Assembly (NCBI GenBank): GCA_049700215.1
Contig: JBNAVT010000037.1
Coordinates: 1 to 14,661, forward strand
From: Thermoproteota archaeon
GTDB taxonomy: Archaea; Thermoproteota; EX4484-205; JAAOZP01
Length of the DNA: 14,661 nucleotides
Direction: 5' to 3'
Shown here: piece by piece, positions 460-13,353 of the stretch
How the letters are laid out: each line of letters begins with the position of its first letter
How positions within the stretch are numbered: the stretch's first letter is position 1
Made by a program: the position numbers and the translations under genes
The notes under the pieces: generated by a model
Told to the model about the DNA's origin: nothing
The model's input: only the letters and a program-made list of their open reading frames with translations
Database searches by the model: none

Positions 460-773
460 CAGGCAGGGGGGAAGTTGAAGGACGGGCGTCGGGTCCGAAG
501 AGGGCCTGGGGAAACTCCCTTCTTGGTGCGGGTGCTGCAGCGCCGCGAGGCGCAGGGGGAGACCCCTAGGCTGAGACAGAAACGAAGCCCCTCCGGGAGG
601 AATGTGGATGAAGAATACTGACGACTCCTGGAACGGGCGTGAAACGGGCTCAGCCTGCAGCAAGCAAGGCCGAACAGGCCAGGTGAGTAACCCGCATGAT
701 GGCCAGGTGGGCCGCTTAGTCGAATCCCGTCTCGAACAGAAAAGGGGTTACTCTCAACATCCCCCCTGCCTGT
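460..773 (+). ncRNA. rnpB: RNase P RNA (archaeal type A-like, ~313 nt)
   Basis: P1 is 13 bp: CAGGCAGGGGGGA (460-472) with UCCCCCCUGCCUG (760-772). P2 pairs GACGGG (481-486) with CCCGUC (726-731). P3 is a hairpin, GGGUCC (491-496) / GGGCCU (502-507). A CR-I-like GGGGAAACUCCC lies at 508-519 and a CR-V/J2-4-like AACAGAAAA at 735-743. P4 pairs AAC(U)CCC (513-519) with GGGGUU (744-749); it keeps the bulged U and shows one compensatory G-C to C-G swap relative to the consensus as I remember it. GCAAGCAAGGCCGAACAGG (659-677) and GGCCGCUUAGUCGAAUCCCGUC (709-731) resemble conserved M1-type strings. Confidence 0.85.
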
Positions 774-1228
774 ACGCTCTGCATTTCCACGAGGATGATC
801 CTAGGAAGTGCACAACCCTCGTTTTGAAGAAGCACGGCATGATTAAGGTGGTTTCGAAAATATCCCGGGTCCCTAAGCGCTCCATAATCTTAAACCCTGA
901 GGCCACGGTTACGCTTTCACCCGGGGACAGGGAGATTGCGGTGAAGCATGGGATAACAGTCATAGACACCTCCTGGAAATCCGCAGACAACAGTGTCTTC
1001 CACCTTCTTAAAGCACCGTTTCAGAGGAGGCTGCCTAGGCTGCTGGCGGCGAACCCTGTTAACTACGGTTCTCCGAGCATTCTCTCAAGCGCTGAAGCCC
1101 TGGCCGCAGCCCTCTTCATACTCGGTTTCCCAGAGCAGGCCTTAAGCATTCTTTCAAAGTTCAAATGGGGCGGCTCCTTCATACAGCTTAACCGTGAGCT
1201 GTTGGAGAATAGTCGTCCTGAAACCTAG
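707..1228 (+). CDS. tsr3: Tsr3-type 16S rRNA aminocarboxypropyltransferase (DUF367); start uncertain
   Basis: The translation LYALHFHEDDPRKCTTLVLKKHG...VIDTSWKS...LLAANPVNYGSPSILSSAEALAAALFILGF...KFKWGGSFIQLN matches Tsr3 from about nt 770 onward. The only in-frame ATG/GTG/TTG codons upstream of the conserved DDPxKCT motif are GTG 707 and ATG 602/608. All three lie inside the RNase P RNA gene. Confidence 0.8.
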   Translation: MGRLVESRLEQKRGYSQHPPCLYALHFHEDDPRKCTTLVLKKHGMIKVVSKISRVPKRSIILNPEATVTLSPGDREIAVKHGITVIDTSWKSADNSVFHLLKAPFQRRLPRLLAANPVNYGSPSILSSAEALAAALFILGFPEQALSILSKFKWGGSFIQLNRELLENSRPET

Positions 1229-1232
1229 CCGA

Positions 1233-2419
1233 CTATTTTAAATCGTCCAGAGTCTTGACAACTATCTCCCTAGGCATCTTCTCAACAGTCCCTATTCTCT
1301 CGCCGACCATGATCTTCACACTCTTGCTTTGAGCCAGGTCTAGAAGCCTCTGTGAAACTATCCCGTCGAAAATAACTCCGGCAACATTGTCAAGCCCGCT
1401 CAGCCTGTCGTAAAGCTGGCTTACAGGCACCTCCTCGATAATCTCCCCATCCTCGTCTAGGAGAATCGCGGTGAAGGACTCCTTAACCCTTTCTCTAAGA
1501 GTCTTCATAACGTTCAGAAGGTTTTCAGGGGCGACAGGCTTAGCCGCCGCCTGCAGAGTAGCTAGATAAGTGTTCACGTCAACCCTCCTGCCTATCATGT
1601 CAAGGATTTCAATCGGCTTCATCTCCTCCACCTCCCTGCCCTGTGGAGCCTTGCCCACGTAGTCTATCTTAGCACCTCTTCTCAGAAGCTCTTTCACAAT
1701 CATGTCGCCAACCCTGTCTCCGTCAGCCAGCACCGTAACCTCCTTCTTTCTGTGAGTCAGGTTAACCACGTACTGGGGAATGTTCACACCGTTGGTTGCA
1801 ACAACGTTCTTAACACCCGCCTTCATGAGATTGGTTAAATCAGCCCGGCCCTCCACGATGAACAGTGTTTCACTCGCCTCCGCCTCAGGCCCGCCTTCAA
1901 CATCGGCAGCGAGACTAACTATTTTACCGACGTCGCTGACCTCGCTGACCTGGCTTATCATCTGAATCACCTCGCTCCTTTGAGAGGCCGACCACCTCTG
2001 CATAATGTCCTTGGCCCTCTCCATGATCCTCCTCCTCTTCTCCTCCCTAACGTCTTCGACACCGAGTAGTTTAAACCGGGCGTCGTAGGGCCCAACCCTC
2101 TCTATGCTTTCCAGCGTCGCTGCTAGAAGAGCCGCAGTAGGCTGGTCAAGATTATTGGGTATAGTCACGTTTCCAACCGTCTTCTTATCGTCTTTCTTCA
2201 GCTCAACTTCTATTCTCCCAAGCTTGCCGCTCTTCTGGAGCTTCTTCAGGTCGAGGGTGTCTCCGAACAGACCTTCAGTCTGTCCGAATATAGCGCCTAT
2301 AATATCGTGTTTCTGCGGGAATCTTCCCTTTTAAAGAAGATTCTCTCCACAACTCCCTCGACTTCAAACTCCACTCTAATCACGTACTTCGCAACCGGTG
2401 GGGGCTGTTCAGCACCCAT
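1233..2419 (-). CDS. dnaG: Archaeal DnaG primase-like Toprim protein, interrupted by a 32-nt BHB intron (spliced product about 384 aa)
   Basis: Exon 1 is 2419-2345 (MGAEQPPPVAKYVIRVEFEVEGVVE). Exon 2 is 2312-1233 (KHDIIGAIFGQTEGLFGDTLDLKKLQKSGKLGRIEVELKK...). The Toprim core is LFIVEGRADL ... VLADGDRVGD. A purine-rich SD-like GGAGAGGAGG lies 10-20 nt upstream of ATG 2419. The ORF track shows only 1233..2168 because the frame is broken at 2313-2344. Confidence 0.85.
2313..2344 (-). other. Bulge-helix-bulge (BHB) intron inside the dnaG coding sequence (32 nt; boundaries +/-2 nt because both bulges are AGA)
   Basis: On the minus-strand RNA the outer helix is GUU (2353-2351) / AAC (2311-2309). 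The central 4-bp helix is GUGG (2350-2347) / CCGC (2318-2315). The 3-nt bulges are AGA (2346-2344) and AGA (2314-2312). The inner 8-bp helix is GAAUCUUC (2343-2336) / GAAGAUUC (2326-2319) with a 9-nt loop. Excision removes 32 nt and restores the frame. Confidence 0.75.
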
Positions 2420-2485
2420 TTCCACCAAGCCTCCTCTCCTCTACGGATAAGCATGCTTTCATCAATCTCATAAAGCATCACCGTC

Positions 2486-6190: not shown

Positions 6191-6332
6191 ATGGTTACCG
6201 GCTTTCAAGCCTCGCGTGGCCGAAGACCACACTAATGTTTGAAACGGAGCCGTGTTTAACTTCCGTGTTCGGAACGGCTCCGCGGGTTTCCCCTGTACGG
6301 GTGTTTCCACGGCTCCTATGGCCGGTAACCGG
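6191..6332 (-). rRNA. rrf: 5S rRNA (stand-alone gene) with a 17-nt insert in loop C
   Basis: Helix I is 10 bp, 6330-6321 with 6202-6193. Helix II pairs GAGCCGUG with CACGGCUC. Conserved strings: GGAAACACCCGU ... UUCCGAACACGGAAGUUAAAC. The gene is about 140 nt, against about 123 nt once the insert is removed. Confidence 0.85.
6278..6294 (-). other. 17-nt BHB-flanked insert (candidate mini-intron) in 5S rRNA loop C
   Basis: The central 4-bp helix is CCGU (6300-6297) / GCGG (6283-6280). The bulges are ACA (6296-6294) and AGC (6279-6277). The inner stem is GGG/CCC closed by a GAAA tetraloop (6293-6284). The outer helix is weak. Removal leaves a 13-nt loop C, ACCCGUUCCGAAC, the same length as in canonical crenarchaeal 5S rRNA. 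Confidence 0.5.
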
Positions 6333-6372: not shown

Positions 6373-8265
6373 TTAAAAAACAGTTTTTAAATATGATCCG
6401 CATAAGCATCTTTCTTCAGAAACAGGGTTAATCCTGCCGCAGCTTGCACACATTGTTTTCGGAGAATGCATGAGGAAGCTGATCCTACCTGCTTTCCTCA
6501 GGACCCCAAGCTCCTCTAAACCCTGAAGATGAATAATGTTAGACTCAGGCGTAAGGCTCTTAAGCCTGGATTCAAACCTGAACCATTCTTCGAAAGCCGT
6601 GTTCCTCGGGAAAACGTTCACACGGCTTCCTCCAAACCTCTGCGCAGCCTCCTCGTGGCTCACAAGGCTGACGAGCACCCTGTTCTCCCTCTTGGAAGAC
6701 TTATGGATAAGCTCGTTAACCCCTTTAACGATCTTCTCAGCCTCCGGGAAACTGGTGGAAACATCCTGAGAGTCAACGAGCCTGCAGGCAGCGTCGTAAA
6801 GCCCGGTTAACTCTATTATTGAGCAGCTTTTCTCCGAGAGGAAGTATGTTTCACCGTTAACCCTGCTCGACAGGGGGAGGAGCTTCCTGTCCTCCATGAT
6901 GCTTCTCAAACTCTCCCTCTTAAGCTCGAAAGCCTCGATGATCCTGCTCACGATCTCGCTCAGGTTTTTCCAGAAGGCGTCCTCGTTCAGAGAGGAGTTT
7001 TCAAGAATACGCGGCAGGTTCAGGCTTACAGAGCTCAAGATACCTGTTCTAACATAGTTGCCGGCGGCATCGTTTAAAACAGCAAGATGGTAAGTGGGAC
7101 AGGAGTTTTGAGAACCCGCTAGCACGAGGGCGCCTCCAGCGTTTAAAATCTTCGCTAAACTGCTCGCGAAGCCCTCTTCAAAAACCTTCCTGTCGTAGCC
7201 GACGAGCGAGAGAGAAAAACTGGATAAAACCGTTTTCTCAGCTATTTCCCCAAGCCTTCTCAAGAGCTCGGAGGCAATGGATTCCAGCTCCACGCTTAAA
7301 ATAATGTTCCACCTCCTCTGGCTTATCGCAATGCTCTTCAAAAACTCTTCTAAAAGCTCCAGGTCCCAGCTGTCTAAGAGGAGGCTGTTCGCATGCATGG
7401 AGGAGCTGCTGAACGCCTCGACGATCCTCCACGCGGCCTGCTTAAGCGACGACTCTCCTCCGGAGAAAGCAATATACGAATGGGTTTTCAAAAGGCTTAG
7501 GCTCGCCAGCGAGTTTACAGGCTCGTCTGGCTTAAACATGAAGCTGGCTAAATGATTAATGTTAACCGTTCCACTGAGGTGCGCGTCACCCACTTCCCTC
7601 GGAAGCTTGGCGAGAAACGCGTACTGCCTTAAAACCTCTTCACCAGCCTCGTTCACAACATCGTCGAGGCTCCGCTTAACAGATATCAGCTCAGAAACGT
7701 CGTGCACAGGCAGCCCAAGCCTCGTCAACCTGTGCCTGTAATTCTCCATCTTCTTCTCAAGAAGGACAGCATTAACATACTCCCTGATAAGGGGCGCGGT
7801 TAAATACTTCACTCCGAGAGAATACAGTCTCTCCTCTATCTCCAAGGCTATTGTTTCGGCAGTATCCTGATCCATGCCGGCCTCCCTGACGAGACACTCC
7901 TCAATCCTCTTCCTTTCGAAAAGCTCGATCGACGAGTCTGTTCTCCTGACGAGGAGAACATTCTCCTTCCTCCTGAGCGATTCGAAAAGATTCATAGCAT
8001 GGTTCAGAACATCCTTGCCCAGCGGGGTTATCACGTATATCTTGTTCTCAGGCTTATACTCGACAAGCCCGTTCTCCATAAGCTTGCTCAAATGGTATGC
8101 GAACTTCCCAGCGTCGCTGAACCTGTCAAGCCTAACAGTCTTCATCAGCTCACTGTATCTGAGCGAGTTCTTCTCCAGAATTTTCAGTATTTCAACTCGT
8201 ACTGGAAACCCCAGTGCCTTGAAGATGTCGCTCAACGTTTTGAAACCCTTGTTTTCCTCCTCCAT
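6373..8265 (-). CDS. wHTH (ArsR-like) + ATP-cone + NrdD-like domain protein without a glycyl-radical motif; putative nucleotide-sensing regulator
   Basis: The N-terminus SDIFKALGFPVRVEILKILEKNSLRYSELMKTV...FAYHLSKLMENGLV looks like an ArsR-type winged helix. VLLVRRTDSSIELFERKRIEECL...LTAPLIREYVNAVLLEKK looks like an ATP-cone. LPREVGDAHLSGTVNINHL resembles the NrdD 'aH..G.ihiHDl' block with HDL degraded to NHL. The C-terminal CASCGRINPVSEERCLCG is a Zn ribbon, and the protein ends 8 aa later with no RVxGY motif. ATG 8265 is preferred over GTG 8283 because the TATA TTAAAATA (8304-8297) predicts a transcription start near 8275. Confidence 0.65.
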   Translation of the reverse strand: MEEENKGFKTLSDIFKALGFPVRVEILKILEKNSLRYSELMKTVRLDRFSDAGKFAYHLSKLMENGLVEYKPENKIYVITPLGKDVLNHAMNLFESLRRKENVLLVRRTDSSIELFERKRIEECLVREAGMDQDTAETIALEIEERLYSLGVKYLTAPLIREYVNAVLLEKKMENYRHRLTRLGLPVHDVSELISVKRSLDDVVNEAGEEVLRQYAFLAKLPREVGDAHLSGTVNINHLASFMFKPDEPVNSLASLSLLKTHSYIAFSGGESSLKQAAWRIVEAFSSSSMHANSLLLDSWDLELLEEFLKSIAISQRRWNIILSVELESIASELLRRLGEIAEKTVLSSFSLSLVGYDRKVFEEGFASSLAKILNAGGALVLAGSQNSCPTYHLAVLNDAAGNYVRTGILSSVSLNLPRILENSSLNEDAFWKNLSEIVSRIIEAFELKRESLRSIMEDRKLLPLSSRVNGETYFLSEKSCSIIELTGLYDAACRLVDSQDVSTSFPEAEKIVKGVNELIHKSSKRENRVLVSLVSHEEAAQRFGGSRVNVFPRNTAFEEWFRFESRLKSLTPESNIIHLQGLEELGVLRKAGRISFLMHSPKTMCASCGRINPVSEERCLCGSYLKTVF

Positions 8266-8598
8266 CTTGATAATAATCTGCACAATAAGGTAAAACTATT
8301 TTAACTTAATGCTGAGGCTAACCCTCTCATTCTCATGCGAAAAAGGCGTGTTTACTACTGCACTGGAGAACAAGTCTGTTTAAAACCGTGTCGAGAGAAA
8401 TGTTTCTCAACAGTTTAAAACACAGCCTCGTTTAACCCGGCGTTTAACACCCGTATCACTGCACAAGCATCTGAGTCAAAACTCTGCTCTACTCCCGCCA
8501 CCCGGTTCGGACAGGGGTTCTCAAGCAAGCCGTAGAACGTGAAAGCACTGTTAACGAAACGCTTTTAAGCCTGTTGGCTAAAGCAAGCCTTAAGGGGC

Positions 8599-8738
8599 GG
8601 GGGCGTGGGCTAAAAGTTTCCCCCAAGAGGGAAACCGGCTAACTTGGCAGGCTTCAGAGGAAAGCGGCCAGATGGCTCGGGCCCATGCGATCCCGGTTCG
8701 AACGCACCTGAATGATGCCGAAAATCCGGGCGCCCCCA
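8599..8738 (+). tRNA. tRNA-Pro (anticodon CGG) with three introns (29, 16 and 22 nt)
   Basis: The acceptor stem is GGGGGCG (8599-8605) / CGCCCCC (8731-8737) with discriminator A73. The predicted introns are 8614-8642 (position 15/16), 8656-8671 (27/28) and 8703-8724 (59/60). The spliced 73-nt cloverleaf reads GGGGGCG UG GGCU AACUUGGCA GGCU U CAUGG CUCGGGC CCAUG CGAU CCCGG UUCGAAU CCGGG CGCCCCC A. The T-loop intron sits in a perfect hBHBh' whose outer helix is the T stem. A TATA CTTTTAAG lies at 8562-8569. CCA is not encoded. Confidence 0.8.
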
Positions 8739-8906
8739 TCGCTTGCAATAAATTGTCTCCTGTTTAAAAGCGATAGTTATCCACTTGCTAGTTACTTAAC
8801 ATGCGCTTAATTTTAACCTTCTCAATTCCGCCTCGAACTTGAACCTTAATTCATACTTATGATACCTGTTACATTTAACGATAAAGTTAAATCAATTGAA
8901 TGTTTA

Positions 8907-9000
8907 TGGGGGCACTGGGATTCGAACCCAGGTCTCGTGGGGTCTCGGAATTTTTAATCTCCCAAGCCACGGAGCCTAGACCATGCTAGCCGATGCCCCC
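8907..9000 (-). tRNA. tRNA-Pro (anticodon UGG) with a canonical 37/38 intron (19 nt, 8942-8960)
   Basis: The minus-strand RNA reads GGGGGCA UC GGCU AGCAUGGUCUA GGCU C CGUGG CUUGGG[AGAUUAAAAAUUCCGAGAC]C CCACG AGAC CUGGG UUCGAAU CCCAG UGCCCCC A. The BHB has central helix CUUG/CGAG, bulges GGA and ACC, and the anticodon stem as outer helix. A TATA TTTTTAAA lies at 9021-9028 on the minus strand. Confidence 0.9.
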
Positions 9001-12545: not shown

Positions 12546-12602
12546 ATACAGTGGTCGAAACCACTGGTTAAACCCGCAGCCATAAACCTTAGGGTGAAAA
12601 CA

Positions 12603-12630
12603 GCGGGCCCGGAGGGATTTGAACCTCATA
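12603..12630 (-). pseudogene. tRNA 3'-fragment-like sequence (T-arm plus acceptor 3' strand); possible att remnant
   Basis: The minus strand reads GAGGUUCAAAUCCCUCCGGGCCCGC followed by UGUUUU. GGUUCAAAUCC is the canonical T-loop context, but the T stem is one G short. No matching 5' acceptor strand, D arm or anticodon arm can be built from the upstream sequence. Confidence 0.4.
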
Positions 12631-12681
12631 AGCCTGTCGCAAGAAAAACCTCTTTCCCCTGGTGTACAGGTCTTCAACCGC

Positions 12682-13353
12682 TTACTTAGCAGGTGGATGA
12701 TCTAACCACAAGAAAACCTCCTGTTTTTCTGTATCCACGTCTAGGATTGTTAATTCCTCAGCGTTGTCCTCCATACTATATCCTAAGATGCAGGTTGCAA
12801 TCTTATATTCAATGAGCTTATTGGCAAGGAAATGAATATATTCCAAAAGGGGTTCCAGATCGCAATTCCTCGCCCTCACAATTATCTTGTTAAAGCGCTC
12901 CGATTCTAGTTCACAGAATATTACAGTTGTTGGGATCACCACTAAACTCCTTCCACTTTCTAATAGAGGCTTGACTCTGGGATGATTCTTAAACTTCTGA
13001 ATGAGACTTTGCTCACGCATTTCATAGGCTTCTTTAACAAACGATAGACTGTTTCTATATGCTCTCTCGTTTGAAGCCATGCGATCGTATAGGTTAACGG
13101 TAACAAAGTATATCTTGTCCGCCTTGGCTAACGCAGTGTCAAAGAGACTGTTGACCAAGCCTTCTAAATCTTTAAGTTTGCTCACGTACACCGTGATTTC
13201 GAAAAGTATGTTCTCATATCTACCATCCACCGTGATGGAAAATTCCTCCGTTGTGGTTCTCCATCTCTTGTTTAGGTATGCCCGCACGTTCCTTTCAGCT
13301 AATTCCGGGTCGTCGCCCCATCCCCAAACTCTAGCCCTTTCCATCCTTCTCAC
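12682..13353 (-). CDS. Hypothetical protein (223 aa) in the low-GC island
   Basis: Uninterrupted ORF whose start overlaps the stop of the LAGLIDADG gene by 23 nt (an alternative ATG at 13344 overlaps by 14 nt). No motif was recognised. Confidence 0.55.
   Translation of the reverse strand: MRRMERARVWGWGDDPELAERNVRAYLNKRWRTTTEEFSITVDGRYENILFEITVYVSKLKDLEGLVNSLFDTALAKADKIYFVTVNLYDRMASNERAYRNSLSFVKEAYEMREQSLIQKFKNHPRVKPLLESGRSLVVIPTTVIFCELESERFNKIIVRARNCDLEPLLEYIHFLANKLIEYKIATCILGYSMEDNAEELTILDVDTEKQEVFLWLDHPPAK

What the first reader, a model, noticed from the sequence alone, without database searches (positions are those of the whole stretch)
2309..2353. Textbook bulge-helix-bulge intron (32 nt) interrupting the protein-coding dnaG gene
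**Seen in the sequence.**
- The dnaG frame is broken. The frame that opens at ATG 2419 (MGAEQPPPVAKYVIRVEFEVEGVVE...) runs into TAG at 2299-2297.
- The frame that encodes DIIGAIFGQTEGLFG... through to the stop at 1233 is closed upstream by TAA at 2333-2331.
- The minus-strand RNA across the break folds into a complete hBHBh' motif:
  - outer helix GUU/AAC
  - central 4-bp helix GUGG (2350-2347) / CCGC (2318-2315)
  - two identical 3-nt bulges AGA (2346-2344 and 2314-2312)
  - inner 8-bp helix GAAUCUUC/GAAGAUUC with a 9-nt loop
- Cutting at equivalent bulge positions removes exactly 32 nt (2 mod 3). The joined sequence GUG GAG AAA CAC GAU reads ...EVEGVVE-KH-DIIGAIFGQTEG...

**Established knowledge.**
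- The archaeal splicing endonuclease recognises exactly this motif.
- Crenarchaeota carry many non-canonical tRNA introns, and this window has six.
- As far as I know, mRNA introns in archaea are documented essentially only for cbf5.

**Inference.**
- dnaG here needs BHB splicing to make a full-length protein. I am not aware of this being described for dnaG.
- Without splicing, the DnaG N-terminal domain is separated from the Toprim core, so splicing could also be a regulatory step.
Basis: partly seen in the sequence, partly recalled or inferred. Interest (0 to 1): 0.88.

Follow-up and report, generated by a model that had tools for sequence, protein, structure and literature searches.

The report
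Conserved mini-intron splitting archaeal dnaG
The dnaG gene of this uncultivated hot-spring archaeon (Brockarchaeota) is interrupted by a 32-base tRNA-type (bulge-helix-bulge) intron that is conserved across the whole lineage, which would make it only the second archaeal protein-coding gene family known to need this kind of splicing, and public annotations miss it.

Summary
On the minus strand, archaeal dnaG (2419..1233) is broken at 2344..2313. Removing the 32 nt gives a 384-aa DnaG whose junction (EGVVE|KHDIIGAIFGQ) aligns without a gap to intronless DnaG.

The decisive evidence is comparative.
- Forty-four further assemblies carry an insert at the same codon boundary. They give 35 distinct sequences from Brockarchaeota and divergent sister groups with 44-51% DnaG identity.
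- Insert lengths are 18, 21, 24, 28, 29, 30, 31, 32, 33 and 36 nt. All three frame offsets occur, and inserts that are a multiple of 3 carry in-frame stops.
- The helix sequences differ completely between groups, but the BHB register is kept. Splice sites predicted from coding conservation alone fall on the BHB cleavage positions in 33 of 35 sequences, and in 0 of 35 in any shifted register.
- The intron-bearing genes form one clan in a DnaG tree.
- Every public protein from this clade is N-terminally truncated, including NCBI's call on this very contig.

This excludes frameshifting, bypassing and sequencing error.

Caveats: there is no RNA-level evidence; free-energy folding prefers a competing register at the 3' site; the endonuclease was not examined.

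No paper in the library describes a dnaG intron. I classify it as a new member of a known kind, after cbf5. Interest 0.72.

The parts
2345..2419 (-). dnaG exon 1: ATG 2419-2417 to GAG 2347-2345, 25 codons (MGAEQPPPVAKYVIRVEFEVEGVVE)
   Evidence: Across Brockarchaeota-type relatives the last 19 codons vary at codon positions 1/2/3 at 9/4/14 sites, a coding pattern. The sequence aligns to the N-terminus of intronless DnaG (KY.I....E.EGVVE).
2313..2344 (-). 32-nt BHB intron (AGAAUCUUCUUUAAAAGGGAAGAUUCCCGCAG); contains TAA 2333-2331, which closes the exon-2 frame upstream
   Evidence: excision restores a 384-aa ORF. (homologous inserts of 18-36 nt at the same codon boundary in 35 distinct sequences). 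(unique in the window).
1233..2312 (-). dnaG exon 2: 359 codons plus stop 1235-1233; begins AAA CAC GAU (KHD IIGAIFGQTEG...)
   Evidence: NCBI's own annotation of this contig (P0227 = MGB9718611.1, 356 aa) starts inside this exon at ATT 2303.
2309..2353 (-). Whole hBHBh' motif. h: GUU 2353-2351 / AAC 2311-2309. H: GUGG 2350-2347 / CCGC 2318-2315. Bulges: AGA 2346-2344 and AGA 2314-2312. h': 2343-2336 / 2326-2319, extendable to 2343-2333 / 2329-2319. Predicted cuts: 2345|2344 and 2313|2312.
   Evidence: On 16 distinct Brockarchaeota-type sequences, 99.2% of pair cells are standard pairs, against 38-64% in slid controls.
2297..2299 (-). TAG that ends the exon-1 frame if the intron is not removed (43-aa read-through peptide)
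   Evidence: ORF 2297..2428, minus strand.
2430..2434 (-). GGAGG, a Shine-Dalgarno-like element 10 nt upstream of ATG 2419 (inferred ribosome binding site of exon 1)
   Evidence: The AAGGAGGCUUG sequence is conserved upstream of the start in the closest Brockarchaeota loci (L001-L007, L018); the other Brockarchaeota-type loci (L008-L013) have purine-rich but different sequence there. This is inference only.

Best explanation
The window is a 14,661-bp contig of an uncultivated Brockarchaeota archaeon. Its archaeal dnaG gene encodes the Toprim protein that serves as primase and exosome cap subunit. The gene is interrupted after codon 25 by a 32-nt archaeal bulge-helix-bulge intron.

Proposed mechanism, step by step:
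1. In the pre-mRNA, the codons Val-Val-Glu (GUU GUG GAG) and the start of exon 2 (A AAC) pair with the ends of the insert.
2. This forms an outer 3-bp helix, a 4-bp central helix (GUGG/CCGC) flanked by two staggered 3-nt bulges (AGA, AGA), and an 8-11-bp inner hairpin.
3. The tRNA-splicing endonuclease EndA binds the two bulges across the 4-bp helix and cuts after the second nucleotide of each, at 2345|2344 and 2313|2312.
4. An RtcB-type ligase joins the exons and probably circularises the intron.
5. The spliced mRNA encodes a 384-aa DnaG with the canonical ..EGVVE-KH-DIIGAIFGQTEG.. N-terminal domain.
6. Unspliced mRNA can only yield a 43-aa peptide.

Shown here: the sequence anatomy, the restored ORF, the gapless fit to intronless homologues, and conservation of site and BHB geometry through a deep clade.

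Inferred: the enzymes, the cleavage chemistry, and that splicing actually happens in vivo.

The intron was most likely gained once in the ancestor of the clade. It has since been inherited vertically while drifting in size (18-36 nt) and sequence.
For: 1. The coordinates and the restored 384-aa ORF check out. The product matches NF003108 DnaG at 381.5 bits against a cutoff of 300.

2. Intronless DnaG of Bathyarchaeia reads EVEGVVEKPDVIGAIFGQTEG. The spliced junction matches this with no gap.

3. All 14 Brockarchaeota-type species genomes, 11 further metagenome contigs and several divergent groups carry an insert at the identical codon boundary.

4. Insert lengths are 18, 21, 24, 28, 29, 30, 31, 32, 33 and 36 nt, so every frame offset occurs. 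The 18, 21, 24, 30, 33 and 36-nt inserts leave both exons in one frame but carry in-frame stops.

5. Splice sites were defined only by coding conservation: the end of the VV[ED] codon, and 15 nt before the codons for GAIFGQ.
- With these sites, 28 of 35 distinct sequences show a perfect 4-bp H with h>=2 and h'>=3.
- 33 of 35 show at least 3 of the 4 H pairs; one of the two failures was my own mis-anchoring of L010.
- 0 of 35 meet the criteria in any register shifted by 1-4 nt.

6. The inner helix is a different sequence in each group but is always a helix: GAAUCUUC/GAAGAUUC; AAACCUAG/CUGGGUUU; AGGUCC/GGGCCU; GGGCC/GGCCC; GGG/CCC.
- Within the Brockarchaeota type, 99.2% of cells are paired.
- 7 of 16 pairs change on one side only (6 always to another standard pair; in the seventh, G-C, one sequence loses the pair), and one pair changes on both sides: UG, GU, UA, GC.
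- In L126, two changes in the outer helix (G.U to A-U, G-C to G.U) keep pairing.

7. The variable positions are loops and bulge bases.

8. Intron-bearing genes form one clan in a neighbour-joining tree, with no intronless member inside it.

9. Exon 1 evolves as coding sequence.

10. No conserved start codon follows the intron. In the window the first ATG/GTG/TTG in the exon-2 frame is GTG 2168, which would delete the GAIFGQTEGLFG motif.

11. Every database protein of the clade is N-truncated at 371 aa or less, with arbitrary starts. This includes NCBI's call on this very contig.
Against: - There is no transcript, circular-intron or peptide evidence. No full-length (spliced) protein of this clade exists in the 15-billion-protein collection.
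- Thermodynamic folding does not favour the full BHB. In the window the BHB conformer is -14.4 kcal/mol against an MFE of -20.6 at 37 C, and it stays disfavoured at 60 and 75 C.
- RNAalifold on the Brockarchaeota alignment predicts the 5' bulge, H and h', but extends H into the 3' bulge.
- Over 34 sequences, the MFE structure contains the 5' site in 19 and the complete BHB in none.
- Some lineages have a mismatch in H: G.A in the L076, L134 and L128 group, and in L135 and L071. L136 has a mismatch next to the 3' bulge.
- Motifs of the same formal stringency arise by chance at about 0.4 per window. A second one, at 6637-6585 (minus strand), lies in an evidently intact NrdD-like ORF.
- The type of EndA in these genomes was not examined.
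Confidence: 0.88

Rival explanations
1. Split gene. Exon 1 is translated as a separate micro-protein (25-43 aa). An N-terminally truncated DnaG is translated from an internal start after the insert. The two either associate non-covalently or the N-terminal piece is dispensable. The hairpin is merely an intercistronic structure.
For: Public pipelines annotate exactly this, for example a 356-aa protein starting at ATT 2303 on this contig. No RNA evidence for splicing exists.
Against: - No start codon is conserved after the insert. The starts chosen by gene callers vary: ATT, GTG inside DVIGA, and Leu/Met codons 20-75 residues downstream.
- In the window the first canonical start in frame is GTG 2168, which would remove the most conserved DnaG motif.
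- There is no ribosome binding site in the 15 nt between the insert and GAIFGQ, which are constrained as codons KHDII.
- This model does not explain why the insert always preserves two 3-nt bulges exactly 4 bp apart, in register with the codon boundary.
Confidence: 0.05
2. Translational recoding. The ribosome passes the insert by programmed frameshifting or by bypassing (hopping), as in phage T4 gene 60.
For: In the window the two ORFs overlap and differ by one frame. A stable hairpin lies at the break.
Against: - Across relatives, the offset between exons takes all three values, and in-frame inserts carry one or two stop codons. No single frameshift rule fits.
- Homologues require no extra residues at the junction, whereas frameshifting would add about 10.
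- For bypassing, there is no matched take-off and landing codon pair that gives the right frame. Landing AGA-to-AGA in the window continues into TAG 2299-2297 (read directly).
Confidence: 0.03
3. EndA cleaves the BHB without productive ligation. The motif would then be a decay or regulatory cleavage site, and the gene would be functionally inactivated or down-regulated rather than spliced.
For: Eukaryotic TSEN cleaves some mRNAs to trigger decay (review PMC10485636). Ligation cannot be assessed from sequence.
Against: - Both exons are under coding constraint, and the excision-restored frame is maintained through large sequence turnover of the insert.
- That pattern is expected only if the exons are joined.
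- dnaG is a single-copy housekeeping gene in the same synteny in all loci.
Confidence: 0.03
4. Artefact or pseudogene: an assembly or sequencing indel, or a decaying gene.
For: MAG contigs can carry indels. The frame is broken.
Against: The same interruption is present in 35 distinct sequences from independent projects and assemblers (NCBI, JGI, ENA, Logan). The exons are conserved and the insert is structured.
Confidence: 0.01

Closest known systems
cbf5 pre-mRNA intron of Crenarchaeota (Watanabe et al. 2002; Yoshinari et al. 2006; Yokobori et al. 2009, PMC2738675)
   Same: - A short BHB-type intron inside the ORF of a housekeeping, RNA-related gene.
- Removal is needed for the full-length protein.
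- Inherited within a clade of the TACK/Thermoproteati archaea.
- Partly relaxed motifs.
- Size in the range of tRNA introns.
   Different: - The host gene is dnaG, not cbf5.
- The lineage is Brockarchaeota and divergent relatives, not Desulfurococcales/Sulfolobales.
- No intron loss was seen in the sample here, whereas gain and loss are reported for cbf5.
- cbf5 splicing is demonstrated experimentally. dnaG splicing is inferred.
BHB intron in the 5' UTR of Haloferax volcanii HVO_1309 (Schwarz et al. 2020, PMC7714728)
   Same: An EndA substrate in an mRNA. The intron is short (46 nt) and flanked by a BHB.
   Different: It lies in the untranslated leader and does not interrupt the reading frame. 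It occurs in a euryarchaeon with an alpha2 enzyme. It is supported by circRNA-seq and in vitro cleavage.
Non-canonical tRNA introns of Thermoproteati archaea, and rRNA BHB processing sites
   Same: The same hBHBh' geometry, presumably the same enzymes (EndA, RtcB), and similar sizes (quotes 11-175 nt for tRNA introns).
   Different: The context is an mRNA coding region. Half of the central helix (GUGG) and the outer helix are built from codons, so structure and coding constraints overlap.
Unconventional cytoplasmic splicing of HAC1/XBP1 mRNA (Ire1 endonuclease plus tRNA ligase/RtcB). This comparison rests on my own knowledge; PMC8718801, listed, mentions RtcB and XBP1.
   Same: Works alike: a small intron bounded by stem-loops is removed from an mRNA by a non-spliceosomal endonuclease and a tRNA-type ligase. 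This changes the reading frame and the protein made.
   Different: The endonuclease and recognition motif are different. The eukaryotic system is stress-regulated. There is no evidence here for regulation.

Membership tests
Archaeal bulge-helix-bulge (EndA-dependent) intron | Two 3-nt bulges on opposite strands, separated by exactly 4 base pairs | tested here: met
   Window: GUGG/CCGC between AGA and AGA. Across 35 distinct homologous sequences, 28 have 4 of 4 H pairs and the rest have 3 of 4, and only in the exact register.
Archaeal bulge-helix-bulge (EndA-dependent) intron | Flanking helices h (exon side) and h' (intron side) that close the bulges | tested here: met
   Window: h = 3 bp (GUU/AAC), h' = 8-11 bp. 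Relatives: h = 2-5 bp (0 contiguous in L136), h' = 3-11 bp.
Archaeal bulge-helix-bulge (EndA-dependent) intron | Cleavage at the symmetric bulge positions yields a functional joined product | tested here: met
   In silico only. Excision gives a 384-aa DnaG with a gapless junction against intronless homologues. The same holds for all ten insert lengths.
Archaeal bulge-helix-bulge (EndA-dependent) intron | Structure conserved while sequence diverges (comparative support) | tested here: met
   99.2% of cells are paired against 38-64% in slid controls. The inner-helix sequences are unrelated between groups. Caveat: most changes within the Brockarchaeota type are one-sided, and H5' is fixed by codons.
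Archaeal bulge-helix-bulge (EndA-dependent) intron | The BHB is a favoured fold of the free RNA (not strictly defining, but often assumed) | tested here: not met
   The MFE and RNAalifold structures contain the 5' bulge, H and h', but replace the 3' bulge by a competing register. The full BHB is in the MFE of 0 of 34 sequences.
Archaeal bulge-helix-bulge (EndA-dependent) intron | Cleavage by the splicing endonuclease, ligation by RtcB, and release of a circular or linear intron | not testable with these tools
   No RNA or enzymatic data. No spliced-form protein exists in the public collections.
Archaeal bulge-helix-bulge (EndA-dependent) intron | The host encodes an EndA of broad specificity ((alpha-beta)2 or epsilon2), as linked to mRNA and non-canonical introns | not tested
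   EndA is not in the window.
Archaeal DnaG (NCBIfam NF003108) | Whole-protein score above the curated cutoff | tested here: met
   381.5 bits against a cutoff of 300 for the spliced product.
Programmed ribosomal frameshift site | A constant frame offset between the two ORFs, with the overlap region translated | tested here: not met
   Offsets of 0, 1 and 2 occur among orthologues. In-frame inserts carry stops. Homologues have no residues corresponding to the insert.
Translational bypass (T4 gene 60 type) | Matched take-off and landing codons that restore the correct frame | tested here: not met
   In the window, the only repeated triplet at the two borders (AGA) lands in the frame that ends at TAG 2299-2297 (read). 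No common pair exists across lineages.

The most novel reading that the evidence does not exclude
The intron is not just tolerated but maintained by selection as a splicing-dependent gate on DnaG synthesis.
- It has persisted at one codon boundary through a phylum-level radiation with no loss seen in the sample.
- It has shrunk to as little as 18 nt, yet it always keeps a BHB and always blocks translation, by a stop or a frame shift.
- Production of the exosome-cap/primase protein DnaG would therefore be coupled to the capacity of the tRNA-splicing machinery (EndA/RtcB), or the excised mini-circle itself might have a role.
- That would make it an archaeal counterpart of HAC1/XBP1-type regulated unconventional splicing.
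Probability: 0.15. Interest if true: 0.85.

Novelty: new member of a known kind. Interest (0 to 1): 0.72.

Why it matters
- In the literature I could search, ORF-interrupting introns removed by the tRNA-splicing endonuclease are documented in Archaea for a single gene, cbf5 (2002). There is also one 5'-UTR case. A 2023 review states that more probably remain to be found.
- A second, deeply conserved case in a different gene and lineage would show that protein-coding BHB introns are not a one-off.
- It provides a natural series of 18-36-nt mini-introns for studying the minimal mRNA substrate of EndA.
- It offers a clean marker trait for Brockarchaeota and their relatives.
- It also exposes a systematic annotation error: every DnaG of this clade in public databases lacks its first 25 or more residues, which lie in the conserved N-terminal RNA-binding domain described in PMC4227792.
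- Gene finders for archaeal MAGs could use the same logic to find further cases: a broken conserved ORF plus a BHB in register.

Tried and rejected
- **ARAGORN and Rfam on the window.** ARAGORN found none, and Rfam found one tRNA (8907-9000, minus strand) with a 22-nt insert at the canonical position. T-arm-like motifs near 8703 and 12624 (minus strand) hint at more, but I did not resolve them.
- **A generic BHB scanner.** Loose criteria give about 85 hits in the window, so the motif by itself is weak evidence.
- **The second strict hit (6637-6585, minus strand).** I examined it as a possible second mRNA intron and rejected it. The unspliced frame continues into a Cys-rich NrdD-type C-terminus, and excision destroys it.
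- **Alternative pairings for the divergent 36-nt group.** I first tried GGAA/UUCC and CUAGAU/AUCUAG. They give out-of-frame or stop-containing products, and uncompensated substitutions contradict them. The register GUGG/CCAU with GGGUC/GAUCC fits both the coding and the variation (reasoning, confirmed).
- **Other copies of the intron.** A search of the window for related copies, as a possible tRNA-intron origin, found none.
- **Promoter and terminator scan.** It uses bacterial consensus sequences and was uninformative.
- **Taxonomic names for the divergent groups.** Mostly unnamed. One cluster contains a 'Candidatus Brockarchaeota' partial protein.
- **Literature searches.** Searches for a described dnaG intron or any Brockarchaeota intron found nothing relevant.
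Full report
**1. What is in the window**

On the minus strand an ORF opens at TTG 2428 / ATG 2419 and runs into TAG 2299-2297, giving 43 aa (MVEMGAEQPPPVAKYVIRVEFEVEGVVERIFFKREDSRRNTIL). A second frame ends at stop 1235-1233 and is closed upstream by TAA 2333-2331. The first ATG/GTG/TTG in that second frame is GTG 2168.

Between the two frames the RNA reads GUU GUGG AGA GAAUCUUC uuuaaaagg GAAGAUUC CCGC AGA AAC (2353..2309).

In the archaeal BHB arrangement, each strand runs helix, 4-bp helix, 3-nt bulge, helix. Here that gives:
- an outer helix GUU/AAC;
- a central helix GUGG/CCGC (G-C, U.G, G-C, G-C);
- two AGA bulges;
- an inner hairpin of 8 pairs, extendable to 11.

Cutting after the second nucleotide of each bulge removes 2344..2313, which is 32 nt. 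The joined message encodes 384 aa. That product scores 381.5 bits on NCBIfam NF003108 'DNA primase DnaG' against a cutoff of 300.

**2. Is it more than chance?**

Taken alone, the motif is only moderately unusual.
- A scanner for h>=3, H=4, two 3-nt bulges and h'>=4 returns about 85 sites in the two strands of the window.
- With h'>=8 it returns two sites, against a mean of 0.4 in 40 block-shuffled windows.
- The second strict site (6637-6585, minus strand) sits in an NrdD-like ORF. Its unspliced frame continues into a typical Cys-rich C-terminus, so that site is a chance motif.
- The 63-nt region folds at -20.6 kcal/mol, z = -3.57.

So the motif by itself would not carry the claim. The case rests on its exact coincidence with the frame break and on comparative data.

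**3. Fit to intronless DnaG**

A protein search with the spliced product found thousands of archaeal DnaG sequences.
- Full-length relatives at 42-49% identity (Bathyarchaeia, Caldarchaeales and others) read ..KYVIKARFEVEGVVEKPDVIGAIFGQTEGLFG...
- The spliced window protein reads ..KYVIRVEFEVEGVVEKHDIIGAIFGQTEGLFG.., with no gap and no extra residues.
- Every close relative (74-93% identity, P0001-P0026) is N-terminally truncated. These proteins start at or after IGAIFGQ, with different and arbitrary starts.

That pattern is what gene callers produce when an unmodelled intron cuts off a short first exon.

**4. The insert is conserved across a deep clade**

A scan of one genome per GTDB species returned 14 loci of this type (L001-L013, L018), several titled 'Candidatus Brockarchaeota archaeon'. 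A metagenome scan returned 11 more (L059-L069). It also returned divergent groups with 44-51% DnaG identity: L070-L077, L085, L086, L126, L130, L076 and L128. Contigs for four further truncated proteins gave L134-L138.

All of these have an insert at the identical codon boundary, after the codon for the E or D of VV[ED].

| Group | Insert length (nt) |
|---|---|
| Brockarchaeota type | 32, 29, 30 |
| L070 group | 36 |
| L076 | 33 |
| L134 | 31 |
| L128 | 28 |
| L135 | 24 |
| L137 | 21 |
| L136 | 18 |

All three residues modulo 3 occur. Where the length is a multiple of 3, the insert carries one or two in-frame stops, for example L008 VVERIFV**RFPQKHD and L136 VVERD*PPQKHD.

In every case, excision at the BHB-equivalent positions yields VV[ED]-[KR]-[HS]-D-[IVL]-I-G-A. 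No frameshift or hopping rule can produce that result from ten different lengths. Precise RNA excision can.

**5. The structure is what is conserved**

I fixed the splice sites from coding information only. Exon 1 ends after the VV[ED] codon. Exon 2 starts 15 nt before the first G of the GAIFGQ codons. I then asked whether a BHB sits in register.
- Of 35 distinct sequences, 28 have a perfect 4-bp central helix with h>=2 and h'>=3.
- 33 have at least 3 of the 4 central pairs. One of the two failures, L010, was my own anchoring error and fits by eye.
- No sequence meets these criteria (H at least 3 of 4, h>=2, h'>=3) when the 3' site is shifted by 1 to 4 nt in either direction.

The 5' half of the central helix is always GUGG, because it is made of the codons GUG GAR. 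Its partner varies: CCGC, CCAC, CCGU, CCAU, and CCAA or ACAC with one mismatch.

The inner helix is a different sequence in each group: GAAUCUUC/GAAGAUUC, AAACCUAG/CUGGGUUU, AGGUCC/GGGCCU, GGGCC/GGCCC, GGGC/GCCC and GGG/CCC.

Within 16 distinct Brockarchaeota-type sequences:
- 99.2% of pair cells are standard pairs, against 38-64% in slid controls;
- 7 of 16 pairs change on one side only (6 always to another standard pair; in the seventh, G-C, one sequence loses the pair);
- the pair at the top of the hairpin changes on both sides (U.G, G.U, U-A, G-C).

In L126, two substitutions in the outer helix (G.U to A-U and G-C to G.U) keep pairing. The variable positions are the loop and the first two bulge bases.

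**6. Exon 1 is real coding sequence**

Across the Brockarchaeota-type sequences, the last 19 codons of exon 1 vary at 9, 4 and 14 sites at codon positions 1, 2 and 3. The encoded peptide matches the N-terminus of intronless DnaG. A GGAGG lies 10 nt upstream of ATG 2419 and is conserved in the closest Brockarchaeota relatives (L001-L007, L018).

After the insert there is no conserved start codon and no room for a ribosome binding site. This argues against a two-polypeptide split gene.

**7. Evolution**

In a neighbour-joining tree of the exon-2 proteins, all intron-bearing genes form one clan next to intronless Bathyarchaeia (57 representatives of 121 sequences). No intronless sequence falls inside that clan (L043 is flagged only because its contig is cut).

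A second protein search with a profile of the divergent groups again found only N-truncated relatives. Listing ten clusters showed no member longer than 371 aa. One divergent cluster contains a protein labelled Candidatus Brockarchaeota, so the whole clade may correspond to that phylum in the broad sense.

The simplest history is a single gain followed by vertical inheritance, with drift in size and sequence. I saw no loss, but the tree is a quick distance tree without support values.

**8. Caveats on the structure**

Free-energy models do not favour the complete BHB.
- In the window, the MFE and the RNAalifold consensus keep the 5' bulge, H and h'. However, they pair the UU of GUU with the AG of the 3' bulge.
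- The BHB conformer costs about 6 kcal/mol more at 37 C, and it remains disfavoured at 60 and 75 C.
- Over 34 sequences, the 5' site is in the MFE in 19 and the full BHB in none. In the 36-nt group the MFE uses yet another register (GGAA/UUCC), which would give a stop-containing product.

I do not regard this as strong evidence against the model, for three reasons.
- Nearest-neighbour rules penalise 3-nt bulges and 3-bp helices.
- The enzyme binds both bulges across the 4-bp helix. This point comes from established knowledge of EndA structure (Xue et al. 2006), not from a test here.
- The cbf5 motifs are also described as relaxed.

It does mean 'textbook' overstates the case, and that the 3' site is the weaker half.

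**9. Context**

The window carries:
- the 3' end of 23S rRNA (1-381);
- RNase P RNA (470-762);
- a Tsr3-like gene convergent with dnaG;
- a small Toprim protein divergent from dnaG;
- housekeeping genes (methionine aminopeptidase-like, AspRS/LysRS-class synthetase, deoxyhypusine synthase);
- 5S rRNA and at least one tRNA.

The dnaG/Tsr3/Toprim synteny is shared by the divergent intron-bearing loci. One cluster member, NCBI MGB9718611.1 (P0227), is 356 aa, is labelled 'toprim domain-containing protein [Thermoproteota archaeon]', and lies on a contig of exactly 14,661 bp. Apart from an initiator Met replacing the first Ile, its sequence matches (by eye) the window's exon 2 from ATT 2303. The public annotation of this very contig therefore misses exon 1 and the intron.

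**10. Comparison with what is known**

In the searchable literature, archaeal mRNA substrates of the splicing endonuclease are two:
- the cbf5 ORF intron of Crenarchaeota;
- the 5'-UTR intron of Haloferax HVO_1309.

A 2020 paper says only cbf5 had been reported before, and a 2023 review says more probably remain to be discovered. Searches combining dnaG, Brockarchaeota, BHB and intron found nothing describing this case. The library does not cover subscription journals fully, so prior description cannot be excluded.

The dnaG intron meets every sequence-level criterion of a BHB intron that I could test. The enzymatic criteria are untestable here.

**11. Verdict**

- It is a new member of a known kind: the second ORF-interrupting BHB intron family, in a new gene and lineage.
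- Interest is 0.72. A specialist would be surprised and could test it at once, but the mechanism class is known and splicing is still inferred.

Noticed in passing
window 1233-2303 (minus strand); protein P0227 = NCBI MGB9718611.1: The public annotation of this very contig (14,661 bp) calls DnaG as a 356-aa 'toprim domain-containing protein' starting at a non-canonical ATT. All relatives in the clade are likewise N-truncated, with arbitrary starts (338, 344, 345, 355, 356, 364, 371 aa and others). This is a systematic database error caused by the intron.
   Followed up: yes
window 6585-6637 (minus strand): A second formally strict BHB motif (h 3, H 4, h' 8, 40-nt 'intron') lies inside the NrdD-like ORF 6373-8283. 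Excision would destroy a Cys-rich C-terminus that reads through intact, so this is a chance motif. It is a useful negative control.
   Followed up: yes
window 6193-6329 (minus strand): The 5S rRNA match spans 137 nt. It has a 24-nt segment where the Rfam model has 7 nt, about 17 extra bases in the loop between model positions about 35 and 43. This could be an expansion or a small insert; I did not analyse it.
   Followed up: partly
window 8907-9000 (minus strand); also about 8600-8760 and about 12600-12740 (minus strand): Rfam finds one tRNA with a 22-nt insert at the canonical anticodon-loop position, and ARAGORN finds no tRNA at all. T-arm-like GGTTCGAATCC/GGTTCAAATCC/GCGTTCGAACC motifs near 8927, 8703 and 12624 suggest two further disrupted tRNA genes that standard tools miss.
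   Followed up: partly
window 470-762 (+) versus ORF 602-1228 (+): RNase P RNA lies 89 nt downstream of the 23S rRNA 3' end and overlaps the 5' part of the mechanical ORF for the Tsr3-like protein. The Pfam PF04034 match starts only at residue 95, so the real start of that gene is probably downstream of 762.
   Followed up: no
L070-L077, L085, L086, L126, L133 (DnaG C-terminal half): The divergent 36-nt-intron group has a low-complexity Pro/Glu/Ala-rich insertion in DnaG (for example APEAPIEAHVEAHVEARERPRPPPEIKERLPPEIKEKL). Its length varies between contigs, with exon-2 products of 380-425 aa.
   Followed up: no
protein P0015: A DnaG that is 77% identical to the window protein is labelled 'Candidatus Hadarchaeum sp.' at NCBI/UniRef. 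Other relatives are labelled Thaumarchaeota, Nitrososphaerota or Crenarchaeota. These labels probably reflect binning or naming inconsistencies for Brockarchaeota-type contigs.
   Followed up: no
L083, L084 (metagenome contigs Ga0164311_10002733, Ga0180302_10012516): This intronless DnaG has the same junction residues as the intron-bearing clade (..GIVEKHDIIGA.., DNA GTTGAA|AAACACGAT). It groups with Bathyarchaeota-type sequences in the tree. It shows what an unoccupied insertion site looks like.
   Followed up: partly
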